A stretch of DNA of 64,000 nt from Anaerolineales bacterium (GTDB taxonomy: Bacteria > Chloroflexota > Anaerolineae > Anaerolineales > Anaerolineaceae): the NCBI GenBank assembly GCA_038206515.1, contig JBBRAT010000001.1:40089-104088 (forward strand), written 5' to 3'. The notes beneath the pieces are model-generated. The model did not search any database, was not told the origin of the DNA, and saw only the letters and a program-made list of their open reading frames with translations. The translations under genes were made by a program, and so were the position numbers. This document shows, piece after piece, positions 28,336 through 42,108 of this stretch; positions within the stretch are counted from its first letter, which is position 1, and each line of letters opens with the position of its first letter.

Positions 28336-29595
28336 TTGCCTCTTGTAACGAATGAACGCAAGTTCTATAATAGAACTATGAACAGTCTTGCAAAGCTAGC
28401 ATCGGTAACGGAGGAAATGAGCCTGGAGGTGGAAGAAACGCCCTCCGCGCCTGATCATTTGCCTGGGCAGACTTCGCCCTCCCCGTTTAGCTTGGCGGGT
28501 ACAGCGGAATGTCCCTCTACAGGCAAAACGCACTCGAAAGAAAGCACCGCAGGGCTGCCAATCAGTATGGTGAGTACCCCTCGAGGTCCCATTCCCATCA
28601 TAAAATCCATGATGACCTCTGCCTGTGAGCGGAATTGTTATTACTGCCCTTTCCGTTCGGGACGGGACTTCCGGCGGATGACGTTTAAGCCAGATGAAAT
28701 GGCGGAAGCGGTGCAGCAGCTCAGTCAGGCAGGGGTGGTGCAGGGGGCGTTCGTCAGCTCTGGGATTGCAGGCGGAGGGGTGCGCACGCAGGATCAACTG
28801 TTAGATATGGCTGAAATCCTGCGGCATAAGTATCAATATCGCGGGTACTTGCATCTGAAGCTCATGCCAGGGGCGGAACAGGATCAGATTTTGCGCGCTA
28901 TGCAGCTGGCGGATCGCGTTTCGGTGAACTTGGAAGCGCCTAATACCCAACGCTTGTTAAGACTTGCGCCGCAAAAAGTGTTTTTGGAGGAGCTTTTACA
29001 ACCCTTGCGCACGGTGGAAGCCATCCGCAAAAGTCAGCCTGGAGCGCGGGGTTGGAAGGGTCGCTGGCCCTCCATGACCACGCAATTTGTGGTGGGCGCG
29101 GCGGGCGAAAATGACCTGGAAGTGCTGCAAACGGTGGATTATTTATACCGAAATTTACGTCTGGCGCGCGCGTACTTCTCTGGGTTTCATCCGGTGGCGC
29201 AAACTCCGCTGGAAGAACTGCCTGCCATTGTCCCCTGGCGGCAACACCGGTTGTATCAGGCTTCTTTCTTGCTGCGTGATTATGGCTTTGGGGTGGAAGA
29301 CTTGCCCTTCGAGGGGGATGGATTGCTGCCGCTCGGCGTTGACCCGAAGCTCGCCTGGGCGCGTAGCAACCTGAACGAAGCACCCATCGAGTTAAACAAA
29401 GCCAGCCGGCAGGACTTGCTCCGCATTCCGGGCATTGGTCCGAAGGGCGCGCAGGTGATTTTCACGTTCTTGCAGGGTGGTGGGCAGTTTAAACGGGTGG
29501 AGGATTTGAAGAACCTGGGGGTTTATAGCACCCGCGCTGCGCCGTTCATCTTGATTGACGGCAAACAAGCGCCTACACAGCTCAGTTTGTTTTAG
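28336..29595 (+). CDS. Radical SAM protein with a C-terminal ComEA-like helix-hairpin-helix DNA-binding motif (putative DNA modification/repair radical SAM family).
   Basis: CxxxCxxC cluster CERNCYYCPF. C-terminal LLRIPGIGPKGAQVI HhH. The N-terminal 90 aa are low-complexity, so the true start may be internal. Confidence 0.75.
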   Translation: MPLVTNERKFYNRTMNSLAKLASVTEEMSLEVEETPSAPDHLPGQTSPSPFSLAGTAECPSTGKTHSKESTAGLPISMVSTPRGPIPIIKSMMTSACERNCYYCPFRSGRDFRRMTFKPDEMAEAVQQLSQAGVVQGAFVSSGIAGGGVRTQDQLLDMAEILRHKYQYRGYLHLKLMPGAEQDQILRAMQLADRVSVNLEAPNTQRLLRLAPQKVFLEELLQPLRTVEAIRKSQPGARGWKGRWPSMTTQFVVGAAGENDLEVLQTVDYLYRNLRLARAYFSGFHPVAQTPLEELPAIVPWRQHRLYQASFLLRDYGFGVEDLPFEGDGLLPLGVDPKLAWARSNLNEAPIELNKASRQDLLRIPGIGPKGAQVIFTFLQGGGQFKRVEDLKNLGVYSTRAAPFILIDGKQAPTQLSLF

Positions 29596-29666
29596 GTTGT
29601 GGGCGTTCATCGCTTTGATTTCCCTATCTTTAACGAGGAAATTACGCCGAAACCGTGCGATATAGC

Positions 29667-29695
29667 TTGACTCCTCTATCACGATTCTTTATAAT
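29667..29695 (+). promoter_or_regulatory. Perfect consensus sigma70 promoter TTGACT-17-TATAAT driving the Hsp70-like operon.
   Basis: Hexamers and 17-nt spacer read directly from the sequence, about 100 nt upstream of the 29799 ATG, in an AT-rich intergenic region. Confidence 0.6.
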
Positions 29696-29798
29696 CTTTT
29701 TAAGATCAGCAATCCCCTTTTACAGAATATAATATTGGGTGGGGGTATATCTTCTTTATTTCCAGCAAGCTTTATTTAATCTTAGGAGATAATCTGTC

Positions 29799-31343
29799 AT
29801 GTCGGCAAATGTCACCGCCGTTGGTATTGATTTAGGCACCACATATTCAGCAGTAGCTATACTGGATGAACATGGGCATCCTGAAATACTTCCGTGTTCT
29901 GAAGGGGAACGTCTGGTCCCTTCGGCCGTTTTCTTCGACAATGACCAGGTGGTTGTCGGGCAAATTGCCAAGGACGCTGCAATCACAGACCCAGATAATG
30001 TTGTGTTATTCATCAAGCGCCAAATGGGAATGGCTGGTTGGCATTATTCTTATCAGGGTCAAAGCCTCACGCCTACAGACATCTCTGCATTCATTCTTAA
30101 AAAACTCAAAAAAGACGCTGAACAGGCATTAGATCACCCTATTACCCATGCGGTTGTTACGGTGCCGGCTTATTTTGATCCTGATCGGCGGCGCGCTACC
30201 CAATCTGCTGCTGAAATTGCGGGTTTCAAGGTTCTCACCCTTCTCAATGAGCCTACAGCCGCCGCAATTGCTTTTGGCGTTGAGCGCGCCACTAAGCCGG
30301 AAACTGTACTGGTTTACGATTTAGGTGGGGGAACTTTTGATGTTACCTTAATGCGCGTTGAGGGCAAAGAAATTACGATCCTGGCGACAGATGGCGACCA
30401 TCAATTGGGTGGGAAAGATTTCGATGATGCACTGATGCGTTTTTGTGTTCAGTGTTTTCGTGAAGAACATGGGTTTGACCCAACAGACGACCCCCATACG
30501 GAACAGATGATTCGGAAAGATGCTGAGAAACTCAAACGAGAGTTAAGCGTCCGCACAAAGACAGCCCTTCGAATAGCAGCGCAGGGGCATGTTAGCCGAA
30601 TTGAGATTGAACGCGAACGATTTGAGAGTTTAATCAAGGTTAAAATTGATATTACCCTGGCATTGGTACGCACATTGCTTCAGGAACAGAAAATGAGGCC
30701 CGAAGTGGTTGATCGCGTATTACTGATCGGCGGTAGTACACGTATCCCTGCAGTTCGTGCAGCACTGCATCAATATTTTGGGAAGCCACCCGATACCTCA
30801 ATTAACCCAGATGAGGCAGTCGCGCATGGCGCAGCTTTGATGGCGGCAAAGAAAATCAACGAGCTTTACCCAGAATCGGTCTCAGAGGCTGTGGCTGTGA
30901 AAACATCTGATCTCATGGTTGCAGATGTGACTTCGCATAGTCTTGGAATTGCAACTGTGCAACCAGGGAATCCACCGCGCAGGTATCATAGCATCCTCAT
31001 TCAACGAAATTCACCCATCCCGGCTGAAAGTTCACGGGATTTTCTGACTTCTGAGGCTGGCGCAACGGTGATCAAAGTGACTGTTTACCGGGGTGAGTCT
31101 ACTAAATTAGAAGATTGTAGCCCAGTAGGGGAATTTACATTGTCTGGGCTGCCCCCAAATCGTCCGCCGGGCAAACGCATTCGCGTTACGGTGGCTTGTG
31201 GGGAAAACGGGTTGGTTCAGGTCTCTGCGATAGATATTGAAACCGGATTACAGGCGCAAACAGAGGTGAGCTACCAGGATGGGCAGAATGCTCATCATGT
31301 ATCAGCGCGTCAACGCTGGATGCAGTCTCAGAAAGTAGAATAA
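29799..31343 (+). CDS. Non-canonical Hsp70-family ATPase (nucleotide-binding domain plus substrate-binding beta domain, no C-terminal helical lid). HscC/YegD-like.
   Basis: Hsp70 signatures IGIDLGTTYSAVA, DLGGGTFDV, LIGGSTRIPAVR. Only 514 aa, ending after the SBD-beta region. Confidence 0.85.
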   Translation: MSANVTAVGIDLGTTYSAVAILDEHGHPEILPCSEGERLVPSAVFFDNDQVVVGQIAKDAAITDPDNVVLFIKRQMGMAGWHYSYQGQSLTPTDISAFILKKLKKDAEQALDHPITHAVVTVPAYFDPDRRRATQSAAEIAGFKVLTLLNEPTAAAIAFGVERATKPETVLVYDLGGGTFDVTLMRVEGKEITILATDGDHQLGGKDFDDALMRFCVQCFREEHGFDPTDDPHTEQMIRKDAEKLKRELSVRTKTALRIAAQGHVSRIEIERERFESLIKVKIDITLALVRTLLQEQKMRPEVVDRVLLIGGSTRIPAVRAALHQYFGKPPDTSINPDEAVAHGAALMAAKKINELYPESVSEAVAVKTSDLMVADVTSHSLGIATVQPGNPPRRYHSILIQRNSPIPAESSRDFLTSEAGATVIKVTVYRGESTKLEDCSPVGEFTLSGLPPNRPPGKRIRVTVACGENGLVQVSAIDIETGLQAQTEVSYQDGQNAHHVSARQRWMQSQKVE

Positions 31344-31367
31344 TTATCTCATTTTAAAGGGGAATCC

Positions 31368-32633
31368 ATGAGTACCAATCGGCATACGCTCCAAAACAGT
31401 GAAATTGTCAAATTCTCAGAGTCGCTCGAAAAAGGACTTCCTATTTTCTTTCTCGAAAAAAAGCTTACCGTTGAGGATGGTTGGGTAGCTGTAATGACGG
31501 TTGGCGGTTCGTATCAAGAAACGCTTGCCGCTGGCACTCATTTTCTAGGGAAATACAAGATTAACCGAGAGCTTAAATCTACTCTGGTTGACATTCGTAT
31601 AAAAACCCTCAACGTTATCACAGACCGCGAGTTTAGCATTTCTCAGCCTGTCCCTGTGGAAGTGAATATTGATCTGGCTGTGGAATATAGGGTCGTAGAT
31701 GCGCGGCGCGTCGCCCTCGAAATGACAACACCGCTTACTAGCCTTTTTGATCGCGTGCTGCAAGCGTTGCGCGATGGCGTGGTAAATGCCACCCTGGATG
31801 AAATCCGCAGGCAGGGGGGCGGTATTGCCCAGGCGGTTCAGCATCATTTGCAGGCGATGAAATTGCCTCAGACTCTTGGGATGGAAGTCTTGAACGTAAT
31901 GACCACGCGGATTAAAGCCACCGATACTGGGGGTGATGCGCTGGCAACACGGCAATTAGAATGGTGGACGAGAATGCAGGATGCCGTGGTTAACGGAAAT
32001 ATTTACCAACATATTAACGTTACTCCCCAATACCTGATGTTGACCCAGCCGGACTTGTACGCCAAGTTAAATGCGGGTCATGTTGAAGTCTTGAAAGAAT
32101 TGATTGACAAGGGAATGCTTGACCCATCCGGGGTCATGAATCAGCCTACCCGATCAACTGGGGGTAACATGATGGACATGACGAACCTGCTTTTGGGTGG
32201 TTTGACGGGAATGGGTATTCAAAACGGTCCTACGCAGCCGACAGGGTATGCTGGTCAACCGTCATCTCCTTCTCCACAGATCACTTCTGGCGGGGCTGGC
32301 GCTTCCTCGGCGAAGGACATCCATGCCCGTATGGAGGAAGAAATTCGCTACCTGGAGCAAGTTCCAGGTGTAAAAGTGGAGGTTTCTCCGGGGGTGAATG
32401 GGCGTGGGATCGCGGATGGGTCCTATAACTTGCGGGTGTCGTTTAAAAGCAGCTCGTATGCTGCGCAATATGTATTGTATATTACCTGCCCACCTGGTTA
32501 TCCACAATCAACGCCTTCTATCGAATTGGCCCAAAATGAAGAGGAAGTCTCTTTTCAGTCAACCGTCTTAAGACGATGGGCTGGGCAGTGGTTGGTAGAG
32601 ATTGTTCGTGAAGTTCGTCAATATTTTAGTTAA
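31368..32633 (+). CDS. SPFH (band-7/prohibitin-like) domain protein with a Gly/Pro/Ser-rich linker and a C-terminal RWD/UBC-like (E2-fold, probably non-catalytic) domain.
   Basis: SPFH-like core (VEDGWVAVMTVGG...HFL...VDIRIKTLNV...IDLAVEYRVVD...TLDEIRRQ). C-terminus EEEIRYLEQV...YVLYITCPPGYPQSTPSIEL...LVEIVREV resembles the RWD/UEV pattern. The RWD call is an inference. Confidence 0.65.
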   Translation: MSTNRHTLQNSEIVKFSESLEKGLPIFFLEKKLTVEDGWVAVMTVGGSYQETLAAGTHFLGKYKINRELKSTLVDIRIKTLNVITDREFSISQPVPVEVNIDLAVEYRVVDARRVALEMTTPLTSLFDRVLQALRDGVVNATLDEIRRQGGGIAQAVQHHLQAMKLPQTLGMEVLNVMTTRIKATDTGGDALATRQLEWWTRMQDAVVNGNIYQHINVTPQYLMLTQPDLYAKLNAGHVEVLKELIDKGMLDPSGVMNQPTRSTGGNMMDMTNLLLGGLTGMGIQNGPTQPTGYAGQPSSPSPQITSGGAGASSAKDIHARMEEEIRYLEQVPGVKVEVSPGVNGRGIADGSYNLRVSFKSSSYAAQYVLYITCPPGYPQSTPSIELAQNEEEVSFQSTVLRRWAGQWLVEIVREVRQYFS

Positions 32634-32642
32634 AGGGGAGAT

Positions 32643-33329
32643 ATGACCAATAATCCGTTTGAACTGTTGAGGGTTGCCCCGGATACCGCTTTCGATGGGC
32701 TTCAGAATGCTTATCAATTGTGCCGCGCAAAGGCGATTGCCGAACAGGCTAACGATGAGACCTTACGAACGATTGATGAAGCATACCGCGCTGCGCTCGA
32801 AAGTTTATCTCAACGACAGGCATCTACCCATTTATCTGTCTTACCTACGCAGGCGGTAGCAGTGTATAACCCGCCCATGCAGCCCAAATCCTCTGCCTAT
32901 AATCCAACTGAGCTGCTCTCGCAGGCGCTTAAAGAACAGGTTAGTCCATCTACTTTTGCAACGATTGATTGCCCAAACTGTGGAATCCCTAACCCTGCTC
33001 AGGTTACCGTTTGTCAGCAATGCGGCAGCCAAATTAGTCGCACTTGCACAGTCTGCGCCGCGCAGATCCCCTTATATGCGTCTGTTTGCCAGCGTTGTGG
33101 CGCGCCGGTGAATGAAGTTGCAAAAAATAAGGCTCTTCAGGCAAATGATGCATCTCAGAAAATTGAACAAGAACGCTTTGAAGAAAATGAGCGTATCCTC
33201 CGCCATGAGCAGCGTCATGCTACGCGCGCTGTTTATGGGACCGTTTTCTGGCTAGTGGTTACTGTTGCCTTAGTAGCCCTTTGCGGATTGGCTTTGTTTG
33301 CGTATTGGTCTGCCTCGCAGTTGAGATGA
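32643..33329 (+). CDS. Membrane-anchored protein with a degenerate J-like N-terminal helical domain, a double zinc ribbon and a C-terminal transmembrane helix.
   Basis: NPFELLRV...AYQLCRAKA (weak J-like). CPNCG...CQQCG and CTVCA...CQRCG ribbons. C-terminal transmembrane helix. Its stop overlaps the next start (ATGA). Confidence 0.55.
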   Translation: MTNNPFELLRVAPDTAFDGLQNAYQLCRAKAIAEQANDETLRTIDEAYRAALESLSQRQASTHLSVLPTQAVAVYNPPMQPKSSAYNPTELLSQALKEQVSPSTFATIDCPNCGIPNPAQVTVCQQCGSQISRTCTVCAAQIPLYASVCQRCGAPVNEVAKNKALQANDASQKIEQERFEENERILRHEQRHATRAVYGTVFWLVVTVALVALCGLALFAYWSASQLR

Positions 33330-34144
33330 CTCAGGAAACAGACTCTCAGTCTCGTTCGGATTTAACGGCTTGCCCCAATTGTGGCAACATGAACCGCCCG
33401 AATGTGCTGATTTGCCCAGCTTGTGGGGTGCGCGTTGACCTCTTTGAGAGCGCCCAAGAAGCCTTGGATGCTAAAAGTCAGGCAGTTCAGGTGCAGCGCC
33501 GGGCGGTATTTGCTGAAACTGCCACCAAAGAGGAAGAGGAAGAGCAGCAAAACGTGCGCCGGAAGCTGTGGCGTTTCTGGCTTCCCATCGTGTTATTGGC
33601 TACAGGCTTGTTAGCTTTACCCATCTGGTTGTTTGCTTCCAATGCCGGCGCCAGTGAGCGGCAGAAGAAAGAAATGCTTCAATCGCTTTTGCTGAAAGCG
33701 GAAGATTGTATCAAAGCACAAGATTTTTCCTGTGCCAGGGATACCTATACTGAACTCATCCAGTTAGACCCACTCAATGAGGTTGCCAGGAAGGGATTAT
33801 GGTCAGCGCAAGTGGGGTTGGCTCGGGATTTGGCAAAGAAAGGGCAAATTGATGGAGCGATTGAGGCGCTAACCCCAGCGCGCAAAGCCACGCCCCAAGA
33901 TGAGGCGTTGATTGACCTGGAAGTATCACTTCGGGGTCAGAAAGCGAATCAGCTCGCGCGTAAAGGGGATTGGCGCGCCGCGATTGATATGCAGTCTGCC
34001 GCATTAGAGCTTAAACCCAATGACTCAGGTGTGCGTAACCAAATTCGCACGTTTTTCGACCAGTGGATTGTTTTTGAACGCGCCAAGGGGAATATTACCC
34101 AGGCGGTGATGTTGCAAATCGAAAAGAAAGCAAGATTCCCATAA
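33326..34144 (+). CDS. Zinc-ribbon / transmembrane / TPR-like repeat protein.
   Basis: CPNCGNMNRPNVLICPACG ribbon, an acidic stretch, a transmembrane helix (WLPIVLLATGLLALPIWLF), then helical TPR-like repeats. Confidence 0.55.
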   Translation: MTQETDSQSRSDLTACPNCGNMNRPNVLICPACGVRVDLFESAQEALDAKSQAVQVQRRAVFAETATKEEEEEQQNVRRKLWRFWLPIVLLATGLLALPIWLFASNAGASERQKKEMLQSLLLKAEDCIKAQDFSCARDTYTELIQLDPLNEVARKGLWSAQVGLARDLAKKGQIDGAIEALTPARKATPQDEALIDLEVSLRGQKANQLARKGDWRAAIDMQSAALELKPNDSGVRNQIRTFFDQWIVFERAKGNITQAVMLQIEKKARFP

Positions 34145-34212
34145 AAATCGGGGAATGACGGAGTTAAACGGAATTTCGCACTATTGTTTAATACGATTAT
34201 GTTTGAGGAGAA

Positions 34213-35172
34213 ATGATTATGGCAAATTATTATGAACTGCTTCAGGTTCCACCGACTTCCAGCCCCCAAGAAATTGAGGTCTCTCTTGATCGCTTATATA
34301 ACGAAACGCGCCGTAAGGTGACTAATTTTGATCCGCAAATTGCAACCCAGGCGAATCAGGCGCTCCAATTGCTGGAGCAAATGCGCTCAATTCTTCTTTC
34401 GCCGGATAAGCGCAATGCTTATGATACGGCCTTGGGGATTGGCGCAAATGCGGGTGGATTGGTAGACCCCGAAGCGATATTCCGTTCCCCCGCTCCTCCT
34501 GCTGGGCCTGTATTAGGCATGCCAACGGTTGGGATGCAATTCGGGCAACCCATGCCCCAATCCCAGGTAGCGCAGCCCGCAGTCCGCACGGATGCGTGGA
34601 CTTGCCCAACCTGTCACCATCCGAACCTTGTGGGGGCGCAATTCTGTGCGAAAGATGGGGTGAAGATTGGTCATCCTTGCCCCAAGTGTGAACAGATGGC
34701 TGAATTGGCAAATAATTTTTGCCCCGCCTGTGGAGCTGACAAACGGAAGGTGTACGAACAAAAACAACAAGCAGAAATTGAGAAATTGCATGTAAGAATC
34801 AATGGCATCAATGCGCAAATAGAACAGATTCGCAAAGTTGCCAGCCTCAGTTCAAGTGGAAGCCTGCGAGGGGCAGATTTGACCGTTTATAAAGAGCTAC
34901 GTCAGGGGAGCAGTTCGGGATGTGCCTGGATGGTCGCGATTATATTATTTATTACCATCTCGGCAGTTTTCACTAGCATGGGGGCTGCTCAAATCTTTTA
35001 TATCCTTTTTGCTCTTGGGATTTCTGCTCTCGTAGGATGGTTCGTCTATTCGAGTGGCAAAAAATCGCATATAGATACTCAGGCAAAAAAGCGCATCAGT
35101 GAGTTGCAAAGCCAGCTTCCTGGGCTTCAACAGCAAATCAGCGAAGTACAGTCGCACCAATACCCCAATTAA
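34213..35172 (+). CDS. J-domain-like protein with HPD replaced by FDP, plus a double zinc ribbon, a coiled coil and two C-terminal transmembrane helices.
   Basis: NYYELLQV...SPQEIEVSLDRLYNETRRKV TNFDPQ ...ALQLLEQMRSILLSPDKRNAYD aligns with the canonical J domain (DYYEILGV...YHPDKN...AYEVLSDPEKRAAYD), with the catalytic HPD lost. CPTCHH...CAKDG and CPKCE...CPACG ribbons. Confidence 0.7.
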   Translation: MIMANYYELLQVPPTSSPQEIEVSLDRLYNETRRKVTNFDPQIATQANQALQLLEQMRSILLSPDKRNAYDTALGIGANAGGLVDPEAIFRSPAPPAGPVLGMPTVGMQFGQPMPQSQVAQPAVRTDAWTCPTCHHPNLVGAQFCAKDGVKIGHPCPKCEQMAELANNFCPACGADKRKVYEQKQQAEIEKLHVRINGINAQIEQIRKVASLSSSGSLRGADLTVYKELRQGSSSGCAWMVAIILFITISAVFTSMGAAQIFYILFALGISALVGWFVYSSGKKSHIDTQAKKRISELQSQLPGLQQQISEVQSHQYPN

Positions 35173-35184
35173 CAGGACAATTCC

Positions 35185-36594
35185 ATGCCCAATTACTATG
35201 AGACCCTCCACGTTATTCCAACTGCAACTGCGCAAGAGATTGAGCCCGTTATCGATCGGTTATATAACGAGACGCGCCGCAAAGTAACCAATTTCGATCC
35301 ACAAGTTGCGGCGCAAGCCAATCAGGCTTTGCTGGTATTGGAACAAATGCGGACGACCTTGCTTAATCCGCAATTGCGCGCTGAATATGATAAAACTTTA
35401 GACTTGAATATGCAGATGGGAGGGCTGCTTGACCCAGACTCTCCTCCGGTAGCTATTCCCTCAGCCTCCTCATTGGGAATGCCTTCTGGTAATATGGCCT
35501 TTGGGTCAATCTCCGCCGGAACATCGCAGGGAAGACAGTCCCCGCAGGTTGCCCCTCAGGGGATCATTGCACCCAAAACAACCTGGACTTGTCCCCAATG
35601 CCATGTTGAAAATCCGCCGCAAACGCTTTTCTGTAAGAGCTGTGGGGGCGAAGTGGGTTTAACTTGCCCTAAATGTCATAAAACCTATGAGGTAGCCACT
35701 ACTCAGTTTTGTTCAAGCTGCGGTAGCCACCTTGCGACTGAGGTACACCGCAAAAGACTTCAGGACCGCCTCTCCCTGGCTGAAAATGATTTACAGACCA
35801 CTCAGGCAACAGATCCAAGACGAGATAACGAACTCAGTCTGTTACGAGCTGCCATTTTGCAGTCTTTTGCCTGGGTAGCTCTCTTGATTGTCTTTCGGTT
35901 GATTGGCATCCCAATCTTAAATGCACTTAGGGTTAGGTTGGATACTACTGATATTTTTGTAGGAAATGGCATGCGCTATGCTGCCCTATGGGGTGGTTTA
36001 GCGGTAGTTACGATTGCTTTTGCCATACTCCTTCGGGCGCGATGGACAGCAGCGTGGGGCGCGCTGTTTGCCGCCTTCCTATGGGGATCAACGAGTCTCT
36101 TTCTCTTTCTGGAAGCCTATTACAATAATTCGTATAGCGATACATCCTATGGCTACTCGGGCTATCGAGATGTACAGCTTGGGGTTGCTGTTCTTCTCTT
36201 GCTCGTTGACCTCGTTTTAGCTGCGCAACCACGCAAATTCGCCAAATCTTTTACGGAATGGATTAACAAGCCAAAAGGAATCGTGACGATTTCGCATGTA
36301 TTTGGCTGGATTTTTGCTTTAATCGTGGCTGCTCAAATGGGGACATGGCTATCTCCGTACTATTTCCGCTTGGGTGATCCGCTCGGCATTTACATGATAA
36401 CTACATTTCTGCACACGGGAATCTATTGTGTATTGGGTGTGATTCTGTTGTGGCAAGGTGTTTTTGGCTTGGGCATTGTGAATAAAGTGAATAATCAGGT
36501 GCGGAATGCCTTGCTTACTCAGACGCAACGCATCAAGGAATTAACGAGTGAGGTAGAAAGCCTGAAACAGGACTTGACGCATATATCGCGCTAA
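35185..36594 (+). CDS. Paralogous J-like (FDP instead of HPD) zinc-ribbon protein with a multi-spanning membrane C-terminal half.
   Basis: NYYETLHV...AQEIEPVIDRLYNETRRKVTNFDPQ...LRAEYD. CPQCH...CKSCGG and CPKCH...CSSCGS ribbons. At least six transmembrane helices. Confidence 0.7.
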   Translation: MPNYYETLHVIPTATAQEIEPVIDRLYNETRRKVTNFDPQVAAQANQALLVLEQMRTTLLNPQLRAEYDKTLDLNMQMGGLLDPDSPPVAIPSASSLGMPSGNMAFGSISAGTSQGRQSPQVAPQGIIAPKTTWTCPQCHVENPPQTLFCKSCGGEVGLTCPKCHKTYEVATTQFCSSCGSHLATEVHRKRLQDRLSLAENDLQTTQATDPRRDNELSLLRAAILQSFAWVALLIVFRLIGIPILNALRVRLDTTDIFVGNGMRYAALWGGLAVVTIAFAILLRARWTAAWGALFAAFLWGSTSLFLFLEAYYNNSYSDTSYGYSGYRDVQLGVAVLLLLVDLVLAAQPRKFAKSFTEWINKPKGIVTISHVFGWIFALIVAAQMGTWLSPYYFRLGDPLGIYMITTFLHTGIYCVLGVILLWQGVFGLGIVNKVNNQVRNALLTQTQRIKELTSEVESLKQDLTHISR

Positions 36595-36596
36595 TA

Positions 36597-39500
36597 GTGG
36601 AGAGGCGAGGCGAAAAATTGGCGAACTTTCAGATTCCCATGCCCTATATCTATATCTCGCCGCGTGTATTGATCCGCGAAGAGGTAGATTTTGATAACGA
36701 TCAAGGCATCCATTATCAAGAGGCAGGTGGGGAGCATGCCATTTGGGCAGCCCGTATCCCATTTTTGCCTGCAATGGTATCTGAGGATTTTACGCGCCTG
36801 GGCGTAAGGCGCATTGGGTTAATCCAGCAGCGACAATTTCGTTTTATTAATGATTTGGCGCGCGCGCGTGAAAGCCGCGCCACTTTTGAATTGCGCTTTA
36901 TCTCAACGCCGAATTCTACCCCCGGACAGCCGAACCTGATTGACGTTGTGTTTCTTGGAAAAGTCTTTAGCAAACGACAGGGTGGCGCGTTACAGCCTGC
37001 AAAAAATTTGTGGGAAAAATTTGTTAGCAATTTCCCTCTTGAAGACCCGTTTGGGTATCCGCTAGAGCCAGTAGAGAACGAAACAGATTTTAGACGTTAC
37101 TACGAACCCATCTCTTTCGAGGGTCTTCATTTAGACAATATGCTTGAAATCCGCAAATTTGAAGAAATGCCGATCCCCTCGATGGCGCCGTTGGGTCGCG
37201 TGGAGCGCAAAGGCGATTATATTGCCCATCCCTTTGTCCCAAGCGAAGACTTTAACCCAATGGGGCGTTTCTTTGTAGCCTTGGCGAGTCAACCGCAAAA
37301 ATGTTATGCGGGGATTTCTATTCGCCCAATCAGAATGTACAATCAAGAAATCCACAATATTAGCTTTATGATCGGGCAGTTTAAAAAGACCGCAACGGAA
37401 GATGACGATGTTACCGAAGAATACATCCGCACGCGCTCGAAGATTGGCATCTATGTATATCGAAAGATCATGCAATCTCGTGAACAGTTGATGACCGTCC
37501 GTGTTCACTTGATTGGAAAAGAGAAAGCGCCACGCGGTTTGGCTGAGGCGTTAGGTTCTGAAATGATGGGCAATGCTGAAAATACCTACCCCACCATGTG
37601 GTCTGCGGCGCAGCCGGTTGATGAACAAGAATTGGCGGCTGCGTTGAATAATCTCCGCTATCTGGAGCAGGATATTTGGGGACACAGCATTGCCCCCCAG
37701 GTACATACTCGGCTGCGCTATCTGGCAACGGCTGAAGAGGCTTACGGCGCTTTTCGATTGCCTGTACCGCCTGAGTCCGGTTTTATGCCGGGAATTTTGG
37801 TTAAGAATGAGCCTTTTGTAGCGCCTGCCGATGAATTAGAGCTGCGTGACCATGCGCGCGCCAATCAGAATGATGAAATGCTTGAGTCGCGTCAATTCGC
37901 TGCCCAGAAAAAGATTGACCTGGGGTACGTTTATCATCGCGGCAAAATTACTCCGGGGCGTTTTACCCTGAATGTCTCTGATCTGACTCGCCATGCGCTG
38001 ATTGCTGGCTCAACTGGGTCAGGCAAGAGTACCACTCTGAAACATATCCTTTCGCAGCTTTGGATTCGTCACCACGTGCCTTTTTTGGTGCTTTACCCAC
38101 TCAATAAAACAGATTACCGCGATCTGTTGGGTTTTGATCAGCTTAAGGATGATCTTTTAATTTTTACTCTTGGAGATGAAAACGTCTCACCTTTTCGCTT
38201 CAATCCCTTTGAAGTTCCTGATGGAGTATTGTTAAAGACGCATTTATCGCGCTTGATGGGTGTGTTTACGACCAGTTTTCATTTAGCAGACCCATTGCCA
38301 ATGGTTTATCGCACTGCCCTTCGCAAGGTCTATCAAGATAAGGGATGGGATACCGTCACCGGCAAAGGTGATCCGAACCGGGAAGCGCCGGTGATGTCAG
38401 AGTTTTTAACGGCGATCCGAACTGTGACCGAGTCTCTCAAATATGGGCGCGAAGTAGGCGATAATGTGCGCCAGGCTTCGGTTATCCGCATCGAAGATCT
38501 GCTCGAAAACACGCGCCACATCCTGAATGTCCGCAGTTCCATGGATATCCGCGTGGTATTGGAAAGACCTACGGTGATGGAATTGGGTCGAATTGGCTCT
38601 ACAGACGATATTACATTGCTGATGGGGTTTTTACTGATGCGATTTGCGGAAGAAGTGGAACGCCACCCTCGCCCGGCTGATTTACCCCATATTACGGTGG
38701 TCGAAGAAGCACATCGCTTAATGGCTGAAAGCTCACCGGTGAACAATGATGCAGGGAATCCACGTGGTTCAGCTGGGGATGATTTTGCCAATATTTTAGC
38801 CGAGGTGCGTGGATATGGCGAAGGAATTTTAATTGCCGAACAAATTCCTACCCTCTTGGTTAAGGGCGCTATTGGTAACACCTACATAAAAATTATGCAC
38901 TGGCTCGAAGATGCGCCCAGCTATAACTTATTTTGTAACATCACAAATTTGAATGAGGTCCAGCGGAATTATGCGCGCACCCTGACCCCCGGCTTTGCGG
39001 TCGTGCGCAGCCCATTTGGTCGCCCAGTACACGTAAAAGTCCCTGAGTTTGGGGATCAACCTGGATATTCCAAACCGGATCAGACTGACTTACAGGATGA
39101 CGCGATTGCAAATTGGATGCAAATGCGGCGATCCAACATGTCGTTAAACGATGTGCCGGTATTACAATCGCAGGCAACCGCCGAGATGAGTACGGTTCAA
39201 ACTGCCCCAGCCATACCCGTTGGACCATGGGCAGTAAATTCAGCGGCTCAAACCTTCATGAATCGCCTTCCTATGCAAACTTGTTTGTTTTGCGTACCTT
39301 TTAATAAAAAACCAGGAGATTGCCCATACGGGATACGAGTAAGAAACCGACTGATCCACGGAACAGAACCAAGTTTTCATCGTGCAGCCAGCGAATCGCT
39401 GGAATTGGCGTTGCGTTCAGCCGATCATCAATCGGTTTGGGTTCAGATAAGTGACTTACGAAGCGAAGTACAAAACCGCATGGTTGGGCTAACCCCGGAA

Positions 39501-39644
39501 CAAATCAATGGCGTGTTGTATTGCTATCTTGCGCATTGGTCGGACGTTTTTGTGCATGATTTGGCAGAGCAGAAGGATGGTACTGCTCTGCGTACCCGTG
39601 TACGCCATATCCTGGCAGAGTTTCTTTCTCATATAGGGTCGTGA
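36597..39644 (+). CDS. HerA/FtsK-superfamily (DUF87/AAA_10-like) P-loop ATPase, 1015 aa, with a C-terminal Cys-cluster domain. GTG start 2 nt after the upstream stop.
   Basis: Walker A IAGSTGSGKSTT. Walker B-like ITVVEEAHRL. HerA/VirB4-like sensor motifs. C-terminal CLFCVPFNKKPGDCPYG. Confidence 0.75.
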   Translation: MERRGEKLANFQIPMPYIYISPRVLIREEVDFDNDQGIHYQEAGGEHAIWAARIPFLPAMVSEDFTRLGVRRIGLIQQRQFRFINDLARARESRATFELRFISTPNSTPGQPNLIDVVFLGKVFSKRQGGALQPAKNLWEKFVSNFPLEDPFGYPLEPVENETDFRRYYEPISFEGLHLDNMLEIRKFEEMPIPSMAPLGRVERKGDYIAHPFVPSEDFNPMGRFFVALASQPQKCYAGISIRPIRMYNQEIHNISFMIGQFKKTATEDDDVTEEYIRTRSKIGIYVYRKIMQSREQLMTVRVHLIGKEKAPRGLAEALGSEMMGNAENTYPTMWSAAQPVDEQELAAALNNLRYLEQDIWGHSIAPQVHTRLRYLATAEEAYGAFRLPVPPESGFMPGILVKNEPFVAPADELELRDHARANQNDEMLESRQFAAQKKIDLGYVYHRGKITPGRFTLNVSDLTRHALIAGSTGSGKSTTLKHILSQLWIRHHVPFLVLYPLNKTDYRDLLGFDQLKDDLLIFTLGDENVSPFRFNPFEVPDGVLLKTHLSRLMGVFTTSFHLADPLPMVYRTALRKVYQDKGWDTVTGKGDPNREAPVMSEFLTAIRTVTESLKYGREVGDNVRQASVIRIEDLLENTRHILNVRSSMDIRVVLERPTVMELGRIGSTDDITLLMGFLLMRFAEEVERHPRPADLPHITVVEEAHRLMAESSPVNNDAGNPRGSAGDDFANILAEVRGYGEGILIAEQIPTLLVKGAIGNTYIKIMHWLEDAPSYNLFCNITNLNEVQRNYARTLTPGFAVVRSPFGRPVHVKVPEFGDQPGYSKPDQTDLQDDAIANWMQMRRSNMSLNDVPVLQSQATAEMSTVQTAPAIPVGPWAVNSAAQTFMNRLPMQTCLFCVPFNKKPGDCPYGIRVRNRLIHGTEPSFHRAASESLELALRSADHQSVWVQISDLRSEVQNRMVGLTPEQINGVLYCYLAHWSDVFVHDLAEQKDGTALRTRVRHILAEFLSHIGS

Positions 39645-39709
39645 GTCAATGGATATTGCCAAAGTAAAAACATATTGTTAGCGCAACTGACGCAAAAGAA
39701 GGAGTCATT

Positions 39710-40072
39710 ATGACAGAAGATATGAACGATCTCCCAGCAGAAGATTCATCTTCAGGTGCATTCGATTATGTAGAACAACCAGACCCCCTCGAAGCTGATT
39801 TTTATGAAACGCCAGATATTCCGGATGAGTCTGGATCAGCATCAGAAGTAACCCCATCTTTTTCTGTGGATCATCCTCAAGATTCCGATAATATTCCTCC
39901 AAAACCACAGGATACTCCAAGCGTTCTTACTCCCCAACCTGAGGATGTGACATATCACCCGCGCACTGGTGGACCAGAAGCTTTGCCGGATGAAGAGGGA
40001 GAGCCACTGGTAGAACCCCATAGCCCTGAAGCGCCTGCTCCATTCCGTGGTAATCCGGAACATGGCGGCTAA
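39710..40072 (+). CDS. Highly acidic, Pro/Asp/Glu-rich, probably disordered protein.
   Basis: RBS AAGGAG. 120 aa with a very strong acidic bias. Lower GC than the window average. Confidence 0.5.
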   Translation: MTEDMNDLPAEDSSSGAFDYVEQPDPLEADFYETPDIPDESGSASEVTPSFSVDHPQDSDNIPPKPQDTPSVLTPQPEDVTYHPRTGGPEALPDEEGEPLVEPHSPEAPAPFRGNPEHGG

Positions 40073-40080
40073 AAGGCGAT

Positions 40081-40659
40081 ATGGATAACCAATTAGAAAC
40101 CCAAGATACGGATGAGGTTGTAGAAACCCCATCAGATTCATCGAATGATTTACAGTCTGAAACACAACTTCAGGAGCAAGAAGGCGTGGCGCGCTTGCGC
40201 GACATGCCTGCGCTTACCCCCGAAGGGTGGGCGCAGCTTGACATAGGTGGTCGGCTTGAGGCTCTCAACAACGTTGAAGCAACCATGGCTGAAATTCAAG
40301 GTCGCCCCAGTGTTCCGGTTGAAACCGCTCCGATGGGAGAAACGACCTTTGGCGGTTATGACGGCAGTCGTATCTTGCTTAATGAAGAGCATCTGAGAAG
40401 AAACGAGTTGCCTGTCCGTGAGTTTGTAGATACGATTGTACATGAAGGGCGGCACGCTTATCAGGATGCGGCGGTGAAGAACCCAGACCTGGCTGGGAAC
40501 GCGCCCGAAGTTCAGGCTTGGGCTGAGAATATGCAAAATTATTTATCTCTTGAACAGTATGGTCAAGAGATATATCAAAGTCAACCGGTTGAAGCAGATG
40601 CCTGGAACTATGCTGCCCAGATTACCAATGGATTGTACGGCTCTGCTGGAAAGGAATAA
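40081..40659 (+). CDS. Protein with an acidic N-terminus and an HExxH motif (IVHEGRHAYQD). Putative minimal zincin-like metallopeptidase domain.
   Basis: HExxH with downstream Glu and Asp residues. No family assignment was possible by eye. Confidence 0.45.
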   Translation: MDNQLETQDTDEVVETPSDSSNDLQSETQLQEQEGVARLRDMPALTPEGWAQLDIGGRLEALNNVEATMAEIQGRPSVPVETAPMGETTFGGYDGSRILLNEEHLRRNELPVREFVDTIVHEGRHAYQDAAVKNPDLAGNAPEVQAWAENMQNYLSLEQYGQEIYQSQPVEADAWNYAAQITNGLYGSAGKE

Positions 40660-40663
40660 GCAA

Positions 40664-40966
40664 TTGACTGACAGATTTGATCCTATTGACCGCCGCCTCA
40701 TGGAAGAATTGAGTTATCCACCTGCTGGGGCAACCTTGATTATTGCTAAACTACGCGGCGCCGCGCCCCTCATTCAAGAGGCGTTCTGGCAGTGGTGGGA
40801 AGATGGGATTCTGCCCGACTTGACTGTTGCTGGCATAACCTTCCAAACTTTGGTTACGGATCATGGCATGAATCCGATAGCCGCCCTGTTGACGATTGAC
40901 TGGCTAATACGTGATCCAAACGCAGCCTTGCGTTCATTGAAGAAGGGTCACGACATTCACAAGTAA
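40664..40966 (+). CDS. Hypothetical protein (TTG start after RBS GGAAAGGA; alternative ATG at 40700).
   Basis: An ORF continuing the operon. No recognisable domain. Confidence 0.35.
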   Translation: MTDRFDPIDRRLMEELSYPPAGATLIIAKLRGAAPLIQEAFWQWWEDGILPDLTVAGITFQTLVTDHGMNPIAALLTIDWLIRDPNAALRSLKKGHDIHK

Positions 40967-40992
40967 TGAATGATTCGCCTGAGTAATTACGT

Positions 40993-41367: not shown

Positions 41368-41533
41368 TAATTTATTTACGTATTATTAATTCTTAAATTA
41401 ACTCGTTTTTTACTCACAAATATTTTATTTGCGTTATCCTTTGGGTACATTCTTTACGATAGATCAGCCTCGATTGTGGAGGAAATTGACAATCCACATT
41501 CGACCTAATGAAAACTCAAAGGAGAGAGTAGCT

Positions 41534-41923: not shown

Positions 41924-42108
41924 CGCTGCTCCCAGAGCAGAGTAGGTTTATAGGTGTTTTATTCGTAGAAGAATGCGTTTTAGTGGTAATGGAACCGGGC
42001 AAGCAATTGTCCGGTTTTTGATTCTTTCGGGCAAACTCAAAGAAACTTGAAAATTTAACACGCAATCTCAATATTCCACATAGATTATAAATATATTCAA
42101 TTTGCCTA

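What the first reader, a model, noticed from the sequence alone, without database searches (positions are those of the whole stretch)
31368..32633. SPFH/band-7 domain fused to a C-terminal RWD/UBC-like (E2-fold) domain
The N-terminal 190 aa follow the SPFH pattern. After a Gly/Pro/Ser/Thr-rich linker, the last 100 aa show the RWD/UEV hallmark (EEEIRYLEQV...YVLYITCPPGYPQSTPSIEL...acidic...LVEIVREV) with no catalytic Cys in the expected position.

E2-fold domains outside ubiquitin-like conjugation operons are uncommon in bacteria. I do not recall an SPFH-RWD fusion being described. It may mediate protein-protein docking within the Hsp70-like system.
Basis: inference. Interest (0 to 1): 0.6.

Follow-up and report, generated by a model that had tools for sequence, protein, structure and literature searches.

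The report
SPFH scaffold with tethered E2-fold domain
This gene really does encode a band-7/SPFH scaffold protein carrying a ubiquitin-E2-shaped but apparently non-catalytic (RWD-like) domain on a flexible tether, and it marks a conserved, apparently undescribed bacterial gene cluster that pairs it with a HerA-type ATPase plus either an Hsp70 chaperone module (as here) or, in relatives, a ubiquitin-like E1/E2/JAB module.

Summary

The fusion is conserved in at least 57 full-length homologues (Chloroflexota). Operon order is fixed in about 30 loci: lidless Hsp70, SPFH-RWD, 2-9 membrane-anchored J-like/zinc-ribbon paralogues, ZnR-TPR, HerA-like ATPase.

The invariant core is SPFH-RWD plus the HerA-like ATPase. 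Distant relatives replace Hsp70/J with E2-CBASS + JAB + ThiF E1, or add a caspase-like peptidase. The same RWD-like domain is also fused to TIR and JAB domains, and one SPFH-TIR-RWD gene sits on a conjugative element.

Best reading (inferred): an SPFH ring displays tethered, non-catalytic E2-fold adaptors within an accessory conflict or immunity system. No paper describing it was found in the searchable library. A near-invariant Ser at the E2 active-site position leaves a small chance of Bub-like oxyester catalysis.

The parts
29799..31343 (+). Hsp70 paralogue (514 aa): NBD plus beta-SBD, no alpha-helical lid. First gene of the operon.
   Evidence: Pfam HSP70 E 2.5e-132, matching profile positions 1-510 of 599. 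It scores below the NCBIfam DnaK/HscA equivalog cutoffs. It lies upstream of SPFH-RWD in every locus that extends far enough.
31368..32633 (+). SPFH-RWD protein (421 aa), the finding itself.
31467..31943 (+). SPFH/band-7 domain (residues 34-192). No transmembrane segment precedes it.
   Evidence: Pfam Band_7 35.3 bits. PDB profile hit to HflK at E 4e-7. Foldseek E 8.7e-10 to HflK, stomatin and prohibitin over about 250-280 columns, including the following helix. A hydropathy scan finds no TM segment.
31938..32138 (+). Helical region after the SPFH domain (residues about 191-257; long helix 191-215), equivalent to the coiled-coil wall of SPFH cages.
   Evidence: AF2 secondary structure. Foldseek alignments to HflK/C, stomatin and prohibitin extend through it.
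32130..32312 (+). Low-complexity G/P/S/T/Q-rich disordered tether (residues about 255-315).
   Evidence: pLDDT <50 for residues 255-315. Length and sequence vary across homologues. In P0074 and P0087 a TIR domain is inserted between the SPFH and RWD domains.
32313..32630 (+). C-terminal RWD/UEV-like E2-fold domain (residues 316-421): alpha1, beta1-4(5), short helix, C-terminal helix. Motifs: YPQSTP (YPxxxP), the family 'SGG' (E2 xGG), W404. No HPN and no catalytic Cys.
32643..33329 (+). J-like N-terminus, double zinc ribbon and a C-terminal TM anchor (228 aa).
   Evidence: Pfam DZR. TM at residues 193-225. It always follows SPFH-RWD.
33281..34144 (+). Zinc ribbon, TM and TPR protein (287 aa as listed; the true start is probably the internal ATG near 33329).
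   Evidence: Pfam Zn_ribbon and TPR hits. TM at residues 96-122. Its position is conserved.
34213..35172 (+). J-like domain (NFDP in place of HPD), double zinc ribbon and 2 TM segments (319 aa).
   Evidence: Pfam DZR; DnaJ 21.8 bits, below the cutoff. Alignment to E. coli DnaJ. TM segments.
35185..36594 (+). J-like domain, double zinc ribbon and a multi-TM region (469 aa); paralogue of the previous gene.
   Evidence: Copy number of this paralogue class varies 2-9 per operon.
36597..39644 (+). HerA/FtsK-type ATPase (1015 aa) with a family-specific N-terminal domain of about 430 aa. Walker A is GSTGSGKS at 471; Walker B-like is VVEEAH.
   Evidence: Pfam DUF87 and FtsK. PADLOC HerA and mad8. Walker A. 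It co-occurs with SPFH-RWD in all operon types.
40081..40966 (+). Two small downstream genes often conserved with the operon: a 192-aa protein with a HEGRH (HExxH) motif (40081-40659) and a 138-aa protein (40550-40966).
   Evidence: tblastn hits downstream of the HerA-like gene in L001, L023, L027-L029, L033, L038 and L041. No Pfam family.

Best explanation
What is shown. The gene encodes a soluble SPFH/band-7 scaffold with no membrane anchor. After a coiled-coil-like helix and a disordered tether of about 60 residues, it ends in a 105-residue E2-fold domain of the RWD/UEV type. That domain keeps the E2 core (alpha1, xGG, beta-meander, YPxxxP, Trp) but has lost the HPN/Cys catalytic loop.

The gene is the signature of a conserved operon. 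The operon's invariant core is this protein plus a HerA/FtsK-type ATPase of about 1000 aa. To that core, one of two interchangeable ATP-driven modules is attached:
- here, a lidless Hsp70 with membrane-anchored J-like/zinc-ribbon paralogues;
- in distant relatives, an E2-CBASS + JAB + ThiF-E1 set, sometimes with a caspase-like peptidase.

What is inferred about mechanism. Like every structurally solved SPFH protein, the N-terminal part assembles into a large ring or cage. This displays many tethered RWD domains, which act as non-catalytic docking modules. By analogy with RWD/UEV domains that dimerise or bind E2s or ubiquitin, they would bring the HerA-like hexameric motor and the regulatory module (Hsp70/J, or E1/E2/JAB) together at the membrane-anchored J-like/ZnR proteins.

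The assembly is most likely an accessory biological-conflict (anti-invader or abortive-infection type) system. The reasons are that the same SPFH...RWD frame carries a TIR effector in some relatives, and that oligomerisation-driven activation fits TIR and caspase effectors.

Confidence by sub-claim: domain and fold assignment about 0.9; conserved SPFH-RWD/HerA-like system about 0.85; conflict-system role about 0.6; RWD as a non-catalytic adaptor on an SPFH ring about 0.5.
For: Fold and motifs. SPFH fold, including the post-SPFH helix aligned to the cage-forming HflK/C, stomatin, prohibitin, erlin and flotillin.

Fusion conserved in 57 full-length homologues.

Fixed gene order Hsp70 - (J) - SPFH-RWD - J1 - ZnR/TPR - J2..n - HerA-like in 6 genome loci, 24 metagenome loci and 2 further loci. 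A reciprocal search with the HerA-like N-domain returns the same operon.

SPFH-RWD directly followed by the HerA-like gene, with E2-CBASS/JAB/ThiF upstream, in L011 and L013. With Peptidase_C14 + Hsp70 in L012 and L019.

RWD-like domain fused to TIR (P0115), inserted as SPFH-TIR-RWD (P0074, P0087) and fused to Prok-JAB (P0099, P0125, P0139). At least four, probably five, RWD-bearing proteins in one operon (L011) suggest a shared adaptor role.

Accessory or mobile character:
- P0087 lies among TraG/T4CP, topoisomerase and SSB genes.
- L047 and L012 are flanked by TIR, STAND or helicase genes.
- Only 6 loci were found among 185,579 species genomes.
- Operon GC is about 0.48-0.50 against 0.53-0.58 in the flanks.
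- J-like paralogue number varies 2-9.
Against: The window operon has no recognisable toxin or effector domain, and no PADLOC model matches anything except the HerA-like ATPase. The immediate flanks in this window look like housekeeping genes, with no integrase or tRNA. No relatives were found on viral contigs.

The SPFH part lacks the N-terminal membrane anchor that all characterised cage-forming SPFH proteins have, so ring formation is an extrapolation.

Standalone SPFH-TIR-RWD genes keep the RWD domain without an adjacent HerA-like gene or Hsp70. The RWD domain may therefore have an intrinsic role (sensor, autoinhibition, self-association) rather than docking those partners.

Near-invariant Ser398 at the active-site-equivalent position is not explained by a pure adaptor role.
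Confidence: 0.55

Rival explanations
1. Housekeeping membrane-proteostasis machine. The SPFH-RWD ring would regulate a hexameric ATPase (HerA-like) at the membrane in the way HflK/C regulates FtsH or prohibitin regulates m-AAA proteases. Hsp70 and membrane J-like proteins would handle membrane-protein clients. There would be no role in conflict or immunity.
For: The pairing of an SPFH protein with a hexameric ATPase parallels HflK/C-FtsH (PDB hits 7vhp and 9cz2). The operon is built of chaperone-type parts. Gene order is stable across Anaerolineae and Roseiflexaceae. The window operon has no toxin domain and no PADLOC match other than HerA. The flanks are housekeeping genes.
Against: The distribution is very sparse: 6 of 185,579 species genomes by pattern scan. 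GC is lower than in the flanks. Relatives carry TIR, caspase-like, or E1/E2/JAB modules, sit on a conjugative element, or lie next to STAND/TIR/helicase genes. J-like paralogue copy number expands and contracts 2-9 fold. HerA-like ATPases are not proteases.
Confidence: 0.2
2. The RWD-like domain is a sensor or regulatory domain intrinsic to the SPFH protein. It would bind an invader-derived ligand or autoinhibit assembly, rather than dock the operon's own partners.
For: SPFH-TIR-RWD occurs as a single gene flanked by opposite-strand genes (L007-L010). It also occurs as cargo of a conjugative element without an adjacent HerA-like gene or Hsp70 (L020/L021). TIR-RWD two-domain proteins exist (P0115). 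C-terminal domains of single-gene defence proteins are commonly sensors (general knowledge).
Against: The domain is well conserved (mean column identity 54%, with invariant R321, P379, P383 and W404) rather than diversifying as many sensors do. Several different proteins in one operon carry it (L011), which suits a common adaptor better.
Confidence: 0.15
3. The domain is a catalytically active non-cysteine E2 that forms a Ubl~Ser oxyester, like BubB of the Bub (6E/DUF6527) operons.
For: Ser398 is present in at least 90% of the 57 close homologues. It lies immediately before the short helix 399-402 that follows beta4/5, the topological place of the E2 Cys. Bub E2s once thought inactive use an invariant Ser there (preprint 10.1101/2024.11.21.623953). 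Relatives are encoded next to an E1.
Against: This operon, and about 30 orthologous loci, have no E1 and no Ubl. E1-linked relatives carry their own Cys-containing E2-CBASS. There is no accompanying invariant His, Lys or Asp as in BubB. Ser is replaced by P-D, P-N or Ala in divergent members (P0129, P0144, P0173, P0087), a pattern typical of a helix N-cap. The catalytic loop is about 7 residues shorter than in UBE2D2 (direct sequence comparison of the domain with UBE2D2), and the HPN motif is absent.
Confidence: 0.07

Closest known systems
Eukaryotic RWD domains (GCN2, RWDD1-3, FANCL; Pfam PF05773) and UEV domains (Mms2/UEV1, Tsg101)
   Different: This domain is bacterial (Chloroflexota). It is fused to SPFH, TIR or JAB domains and encoded with Hsp70/HerA-like or E1/E2/JAB genes. 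It retains an E2-like xGG motif and a near-invariant Ser before the post-beta4 helix. RWD proper was regarded as a eukaryotic (FECA-LECA) radiation with a single Asgard relative (10.1101/514885).
Bacterial 'inactive E2/RWD-like' domains of 6e operons (Iyer et al. 2006, PMC1779556), now BubB of Bub operons (10.1101/2024.11.21.623953)
   Same: A bacterial UBC-fold domain lacking the catalytic Cys, recovered with RWD/E2 as best profile hits. Some relatives of the present family sit in E1/JAB operons.
   Different: Bub operons have polyUbl, a JAB-E1 or E2-E1 fusion and a DUF6527 protease, and BubB has an invariant Ser-x-His active site. Here there is no Ubl, E1 or DUF6527. In E1-linked relatives a separate Cys-bearing E2-CBASS is present and the RWD-like domain is additional. 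The SPFH fusion and the Hsp70/HerA-like context are not described in those papers.
SPFH cage assemblies partnered with hexameric machines (HflK/C-FtsH, prohibitin-m-AAA, QmcA-YbbJ, stomatin, erlin, flotillin)
   Same: An SPFH domain followed by a helix, aligned over about 250-280 columns. The gene is encoded with a hexamer-type P-loop ATPase.
   Different: There is no N-terminal membrane anchor. The partner is a HerA/FtsK-type ATPase rather than an AAA+ protease or NfeD. The C-terminus carries an E2-fold domain on a long tether.
NTP/chaperone-regulated conflict systems of multicellular bacteria (Kaur et al. 2020, PMC7159879) and HerA-scaffolded defence systems (SIR2-HerA, DUF4297-HerA)
   Same: A modular operon in filamentous or multicellular-type phyla, with ATP-driven regulators (Hsp70, HerA-like), swappable effectors (TIR, caspase-like), expanding paralogous TM or repeat proteins, and adaptor domains shared among components.
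   Different: That paper's Hsp70 systems are coupled to GTPases/tubulin or GAP1-N2. It mentions neither RWD nor an SPFH component. PADLOC HerA models match only weakly and no SIR2 or DUF4297 partner is present.

Membership tests
SPFH / band-7 (Pfam PF01145) | Sequence match above the curated threshold | tested here: met
   35.3 bits against a cutoff of 23.6, residues 34-192. The family profile hits HflK at E 4e-7.
SPFH / band-7 (Pfam PF01145) | SPFH alpha/beta fold followed by a long helix | tested here: met
   Foldseek E 8.7e-10 to 1e-6 to HflK/C, stomatin, prohibitin, erlin and QmcA over 240-290 columns. Model pLDDT is >90 in this region.
SPFH / band-7 (Pfam PF01145) | N-terminal membrane anchor (TM or hairpin), as in characterised cage-forming members | tested here: not met
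   No hydrophobic segment was found by hydropathy scan. The N-terminus is polar and conserved.
SPFH / band-7 (Pfam PF01145) | Large homo- or hetero-oligomeric ring or cage | not testable with these tools
   Only single-chain prediction was available.
RWD domain (Pfam PF05773) | Sequence match at or above the gathering score | tested here: met
   The isolated domain scores 23.8 bits against 22.8 (E 5.2e-5). 19/39 members match at E<=0.01, best 5.8e-6. In the whole-protein scan the score is 21.2 bits, just below the cutoff.
RWD domain (Pfam PF05773) | alpha-beta4-alpha-alpha UBC-type fold of about 100-110 residues | tested here: met
RWD domain (Pfam PF05773) | YPxxxP turn between beta3 and beta4 | tested here: met
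   Y378-P-Q-S-T-P383; P379 and P383 are invariant in 57 sequences.
RWD domain (Pfam PF05773) | No catalytic Cys or HPN | tested here: met
   The only Cys (C374) aligns with the core Phe of the UBE2D2 'HFPTDYP' strand. No His-Pro-Asn is present, and the segment between beta4 and Trp has no Cys or His.
Catalytic E2 (UBC, Pfam PF00179 / E2-CBASS PF26395) | HPN motif and catalytic Cys in the loop after beta4 | tested here: not met
   Both are absent. There is no UQ_con or E2-CBASS Pfam hit for any of the 39 members. hhalign to the co-family E2-CBASS of L011 covers only beta2-beta3-YPxxPP.
Catalytic E2 (UBC, Pfam PF00179 / E2-CBASS PF26395) | Co-encoded E1 and Ubl | tested here: not met
   No tblastn hit of the L011 E1, E2 or JAB proteins in the window or in L001-L006. 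None was seen in 24 metagenome loci.
Bub-type serine E2 (BubB) | Invariant Ser at the Cys-equivalent position, with invariant His+Asp or Lys+His | tested here: inconclusive
   Ser398 is conserved in at least 90% of the close family and precedes helix 399-402. No partner His or Lys is present. It is replaced by P-D, P-N or Ala in distant members. No 3D superposition was possible.
Bub-type serine E2 (BubB) | Operon with polyUbl, a JAB-E1 or E2-E1 fusion and a DUF6527 protease | tested here: not met
   Pfam scans of the operon genes show none of these.
Known anti-phage systems (PADLOC-DB v2.0) | Match of the component proteins to a system's models | tested here: not met
   There are no hits for Hsp70, SPFH-RWD or most J-like/ZnR proteins. 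One J-like protein gives only marginal LmuB hits (E 1e-3 to 2e-3). The ATPase gives only weak HerA and mad8 hits.
J-domain proteins (Pfam PF00226) | J-domain fold with the HPD tripeptide | tested here: inconclusive
   The window paralogues score 21.8 bits, below the 27.8 cutoff. They carry NFDP where relatives have HHDP and DnaJ has HPD. Roseiflexaceae orthologues have precomputed Pfam DnaJ hits at E<=1e-5.

The most novel reading that the evidence does not exclude
SPFH-RWD plus the HerA-like ATPase would define a new family of bacterial immune or conflict systems. In it, an SPFH cage decorated with E2-fold adaptor domains is regulated by either an Hsp70/J-protein module or a ubiquitin-like E1-E2-JAB module, used interchangeably, with TIR or caspase-like effectors plugged in.

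This would be a prokaryotic precedent for two eukaryotic couplings: chaperone triage with ubiquitin-type conjugation, and SPFH microdomains with ubiquitin machinery. It would also be a bacterial reservoir of bona fide RWD-type domains, which were thought to be a eukaryotic radiation.
Probability: 0.35. Interest if true: 0.85.

Novelty: new variant of a known kind. Interest (0 to 1): 0.68.

Why it matters
Non-catalytic E2-fold (RWD/UEV) domains are central adaptors in eukaryotic ubiquitin signalling, kinetochores and stress sensing. Their pre-eukaryotic history is thin. Here a bacterial family matches the RWD model itself and is wired into three contexts:
- an SPFH scaffold;
- an Hsp70/J-like chaperone set;
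- in relatives, E1/E2/JAB enzymes and TIR or caspase-like effectors.

If the operon is an immune system, it would add an unrecognised class built on an SPFH assembly. It would also show that Hsp70 and ubiquitin-like conjugation modules are evolutionarily exchangeable regulators of the same core. Finally, it gives a compact, testable model for what RWD domains dock onto.

Tried and rejected

Searches that found nothing:
- The viral-contig scan found no relative.
- PADLOC gave nothing specific.
- Eight full-text literature searches were completed (two further attempts failed on term length). They combined SPFH, RWD, Hsp70, HerA, TIR, JAB and E2-like terms and found no description of this fusion or operon. 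The library is incomplete, so absence is not proof.

Ideas considered and rejected:
- I considered that the conserved C-terminal Gly (47/57 homologues) marks the protein itself as an E1 substrate, like CD-NTases in type II CBASS. I rejected this as the main idea because the Gly-ending proteins have no E1 in their operon, while the E1-linked relatives end in Ser or Glu.
- Many of the 148 profile hits are giant proteins matching only profile positions about 25-80 repeatedly. I treated these as beta-hairpin repeat noise and did not count them.
- P0065 (RWD followed by a death/EAD-like tail) starts with MCIRDS (adaptor-derived) and repeats MIDKGMLNT, so I judged it a chimeric assembly and did not use it.
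- The search with the HerA-like N-domain returned only 13, mostly truncated, proteins.
Full report
**1. The observation**

Coordinates 31368..32633 (+) hold an ATG-initiated ORF of 421 codons. The opposite strand is closed by many stops. The quoted motifs are present. The start codon is supported by invariant M1, N4 and R5 across homologues.

A single-sequence Pfam scan gives Band_7/SPFH for residues 34-192 (E 1.5e-8, 35.3 bits against a cutoff of 23.6). It gives RWD for residues 323-391 (E 3.4e-4, 21.2 bits against 22.8).

**2. The two domains**

A search of 5.8 billion proteins returned 59 relatives. Nearly all are full length (about 400-430 aa) and 36-70% identical. The few that carry names are labelled Anaerolineae or Chloroflexota.

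The 57-sequence alignment shows strong conservation at both ends and a gappy, low-complexity middle. AlphaFold2 on this alignment gives:
- pLDDT >90 for residues 1-190 and 316-421;
- a helical segment 191-257;
- an unstructured stretch 255-315 with pLDDT <50.

Foldseek aligns the N-terminal 240-290 residues to HflK/C, stomatin, prohibitin, erlin, QmcA and flotillin at E 9e-10 to 1e-5. The family profile finds HflK in the PDB at E 4e-7. There is no hydrophobic segment anywhere in the protein. So this is an SPFH protein without the usual N-terminal membrane anchor.

The C-terminal domain was modelled alone from a 39-sequence alignment (pLDDT 92.2, pTM 0.83). It has the order helix, four to five strands, short helix, long helix.
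- Foldseek agrees, with probability about 1.0 and TM 0.55-0.74.
- At sequence level, the isolated domain passes the Pfam RWD gathering score (23.8 against 22.8). 19 of 39 family members hit RWD at E <= 0.01, and none hits UQ_con.
- The family profile's weak PDB hits are almost exclusively E2, UEV and RWD chains.
It aligns alpha1, the family 'SGG' with the E2 'QGG', and 'CPxGYPxxPP' with 'FPTDYPFKPP'.

Downstream of beta4, the E2 catalytic loop (HPN...Cys) is missing. By direct comparison of the domain sequence with UBE2D2, about 15 residues instead of about 22 separate beta4 from the conserved Trp (W404). That stretch contains no Cys or His. The single Cys (C374) occupies a buried strand position.

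The domain is a non-canonical, Cys-less E2 fold of the RWD/UEV type.

**3. A caveat on 'inactive'**

Bub (6E/DUF6527) operons contain E2-like proteins long called inactive. A preprint (10.1101/2024.11.21.623953) shows that they transfer a Ubl through a Ser oxyester, with an invariant Ser-x-His at the Cys-equivalent position.

In the present family, Ser398 ('FQS-x-x-LRRW') is conserved in at least 90% of sequences. It sits just before the short helix 399-402, which is topologically where the E2 Cys lies.

Several observations argue against catalysis:
- There is no conserved partner His, Lys or Asp.
- In divergent members the Ser is replaced by P-D, P-N or Ala (P0129, P0144, P0173, P0183, P0087), the pattern expected for a helix N-cap.
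- No E1 or Ubl is encoded in this operon or in about 30 orthologous loci.
- E1-linked relatives have their own Cys-bearing E2.

I could not superpose coordinates, so this stays open at low probability.

**4. Genomic context in the window**

The gene lies in a tightly packed co-directional cluster with gaps of 2-70 nt.

| Coordinates | Product |
|---|---|
| 29799-31343 | Hsp70 paralogue; Pfam match ends at profile position 510/599, so no helical lid; below the DnaK/HscA equivalog cutoffs |
| 31368-32633 | SPFH-RWD |
| 32643-33329 | J-like, double zinc ribbon, TM |
| 33281-34144 | Zinc ribbon, TM, TPR |
| 34213-35172 | J-like, double zinc ribbon, TM paralogue |
| 35185-36594 | J-like, double zinc ribbon, multi-TM paralogue |
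| 36597-39644 | 1015-aa HerA/FtsK-type ATPase with an intact Walker A |

The J-like domains score below the Pfam DnaJ cutoff. They carry NFDP (HHDP in relatives) where DnaJ has HPD. Roseiflexaceae orthologues have strong precomputed Pfam DnaJ hits.

Operon GC is 0.48-0.50 against 0.53-0.58 in the flanks. No tRNA was found in the window. The flanking genes look like housekeeping genes.

**5. Conservation of the operon**

The same gene order recurs in three independent sets of loci:
- six loci from GTDB species genomes (Chloroflexota/Anaerolineae, plus one short contig binned as Nitrosomonadales);
- 24 metagenome loci;
- two loci reached from the HerA-like side, one of them from Roseiflexaceae.

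The order is Hsp70 - (optional J-like) - SPFH-RWD - J-like/DZR/TM - ZnR/TPR - one to several J-like/DZR/TM paralogues - HerA-like. It is often followed by a 192-aa HExxH protein and a 138-aa protein.

Every contig that extends far enough upstream has the Hsp70 gene. Every contig that extends far enough downstream has the HerA-like gene, except two (L003 and L034, identical in layout), which end within a run of eight J-like paralogues. The number of J-like paralogues ranges from 2 to 9.

**6. Wider family of the RWD-like domain**

A profile of the C-terminal domain was run with HMMER against 1.84 billion representative proteins. It gave 148 hits at E <= 1e-3, of which 41 were at E <= 1e-10. I discounted giant repeat proteins that match only the hairpin part of the profile. 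The full-domain, single-match hits fall into five groups:
- (a) more divergent SPFH-RWD proteins;
- (b) SPFH-TIR-RWD proteins (P0074, P0087), in which a TIR_2 domain (E 1e-17 to 1e-19) is inserted between the SPFH and RWD domains;
- (c) TIR-RWD (P0115);
- (d) Prok-JAB-RWD proteins, some with a TM and an extracellular part (P0125, P0127, P0139) and one with two RWD copies (P0099, Pfam RWD 36.4 bits);
- (e) small standalone proteins.

Their neighbourhoods are informative.

*L011.* This locus encodes, in order:
- JAB-RWD-TM;
- two TM-RWD proteins;
- a 59-aa ORF;
- a Cys-containing E2-CBASS;
- a second JAB protein with an RWD-like tail (seen by eye only; hhalign gave it just 2% probability);
- a ThiF E1;
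- an SPFH-RWD protein;
- directly after it, a HerA-like ATPase whose N-terminal domain is 38% identical to the window's.

*L013.* It repeats E2-CBASS - JAB - ThiF - SPFH-RWD - HerA-like, with the HerA-like protein 41% identical over 705 residues.

*L012 and L019.* They encode Peptidase_C14 (caspase-like) - Hsp70 - divergent SPFH-RWD, followed in L012 by a HerA-like ATPase and in L019 by a truncated gene at the contig end. In L012 a later gene starts with a J-like N-terminus, and a TIR-STAND-TPR gene lies nearby.

*L014 and L015.* They have JAB-RWD-RWD, two large TPR proteins, a 55-aa ORF homologous to the L011 59-aa ORF, ThiF and E2-CBASS.

*P0074 and P0087.* P0074 is a single gene flanked by opposite-strand genes. 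P0087 lies in a conjugative-element context with topoisomerase, TraG/T4CP, SSB and ThiF + Prok-E2_D genes.

*L047.* The Hsp70-type operon here is followed by a TIR fragment and by ResIII-helicase and HATPase_c_3 genes.

**7. Interpretation**

Shown:
- an SPFH-RWD fusion conserved over large divergence;
- an invariant genomic pairing with a HerA-like ATPase that has a family-specific N-terminal domain;
- exchange of the accompanying module between Hsp70/J-like and E1/E2/JAB;
- recurrent association of the RWD-like domain with TIR, JAB and caspase-like proteins;
- sparse phyletic distribution and an occasional mobile-element or defence-gene neighbourhood.

Inferred:
- The SPFH part oligomerises into a ring or cage, as all solved SPFH proteins do. 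This would present many RWD domains on tethers of about 60 residues.
- The RWD-like domain is a non-catalytic docking module. Precedents from established knowledge are RWD/UEV dimerisation at kinetochores, RWDD3-Ubc9, Mms2-Ubc13 and Tsg101-ubiquitin. The presence of at least four, probably five, RWD-bearing proteins in one operon (L011) fits a shared adaptor.
- The assembly couples a HerA-like hexameric motor to a regulatory ATP-driven module at membrane-anchored J-like/ZnR proteins.
- The system serves in biological conflict. Effector activation by oligomerisation is a natural fit for the TIR and caspase-like variants.

The pairing of an SPFH protein with a hexameric ATPase also recalls HflK/C-FtsH. 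That analogy underlies the main rival, a housekeeping membrane-proteostasis machine. The rival is weakened by the sparse distribution, the modular effector content and the mobile contexts. It is not excluded for the effector-less version in this window.

**8. Comparison with the literature**

- Iyer et al. 2006 (PMC1779556) described bacterial 'inactive E2/RWD-like' domains in 6e operons.
- The Bub preprint characterises those operons.
- Kaur et al. 2020 (PMC7159879) describes Hsp70-containing conflict systems tied to GTPases. It has no mention of RWD, and cites SPFH and HerA only in its reference list.
- The CoCoNuT paper uses Hsp70-like domains in a different context.
- Tromer et al. (10.1101/514885) treat RWD proper as a eukaryotic radiation with one Asgard relative.
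- None of the eight completed full-text searches found an SPFH-RWD or SPFH-TIR fusion, or an Hsp70/SPFH/HerA operon. PADLOC-DB v2 has no matching models.

The library is incomplete, so prior description elsewhere cannot be ruled out.

**9. Verdict**

The finding is correct as stated. On follow-up it is more interesting than a lone odd fusion: it is the marker of a conserved, modular and apparently undescribed system.

I class it as a new variant of a known kind (non-catalytic E2-fold adaptor in a modular prokaryotic conflict-type operon). There is a substantial chance that the system as a whole deserves recognition as a new family.

Interest is 0.68. Mechanistic claims beyond the domain and synteny level are inferences.

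Noticed in passing
window 40081-40966: A 192-aa protein with a HEGRH (HExxH, zincin-like) motif and an overlapping 138-aa ORF follow the HerA-like gene. They are conserved at that position in at least 9 loci, but neither matches any Pfam family. They could be an effector/partner pair of the operon.
   Followed up: partly
window 32625-32633 (C-terminus of the SPFH-RWD protein); alignment A2: 47 of 57 close homologues end exactly in Gly (...KQYFG), reminiscent of E1 substrates, yet these operons have no E1. The window protein ends in ...QYFS, and the E1-linked relatives end in Ser or Glu.
   Followed up: partly
window 34213-34440 and 35185-35410; L001-L006: The J-like domains carry NFDP (window) or HHDP (most relatives) where canonical J domains have HPD. 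Paralogue number per operon varies from 2 to 9.
   Followed up: partly
L011 4924-5103 and L014 16939-17106: A conserved 55-59-aa ORF (33% identity) lies just upstream of the E1/E2 genes in two unrelated RWD-containing operons. It is hydrophilic and does not look beta-grasp-like. It is a candidate small modifier or regulator.
   Followed up: no
L011 650-9529: One operon encodes at least four, probably five, proteins with the RWD-like domain: JAB-RWD-TM, two TM-RWD proteins, SPFH-RWD, and a JAB protein whose RWD-like tail was seen by eye only. It also encodes an active-looking Cys E2-CBASS, a ThiF E1 and a HerA-like ATPase.
   Followed up: partly
L020 6147-8156 / L021 4509-6518: The SPFH-TIR-RWD gene (P0087) sits inside a conjugative-element-like region with topoisomerase, TraG/T4CP, SSB, HU and ThiF + Prok-E2_D genes.
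   Followed up: no
window 29000-42000: GC content dips to 0.48-0.50 across the operon, against 0.53-0.58 in the flanks. This is consistent with horizontal acquisition. There is no tRNA in the window.
   Followed up: partly
window 28336-29595: Immediately upstream is a radical-SAM + helix-hairpin-helix protein matching TIGR03916 (the radical SAM family linked to UDG-type DNA repair genes). It is not conserved next to the operon in other loci, so it is probably unrelated.
   Followed up: partly
window 40993-41367, 41429-41923 and 42329-42769: Three small genes lie downstream: a DUF6504 protein (E 1e-31), a weak STAS-like protein and a SHOCT-like-domain protein. None is conserved with the operon elsewhere.
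   Followed up: partly
P0065: A 418-aa predicted protein joins an RWD-like domain to a C-terminal segment that resembles effector-associated/death-like adaptor domains. It starts with MCIRDS (adaptor-derived) and repeats a 9-residue string, so it is probably a chimeric assembly.
   Followed up: no
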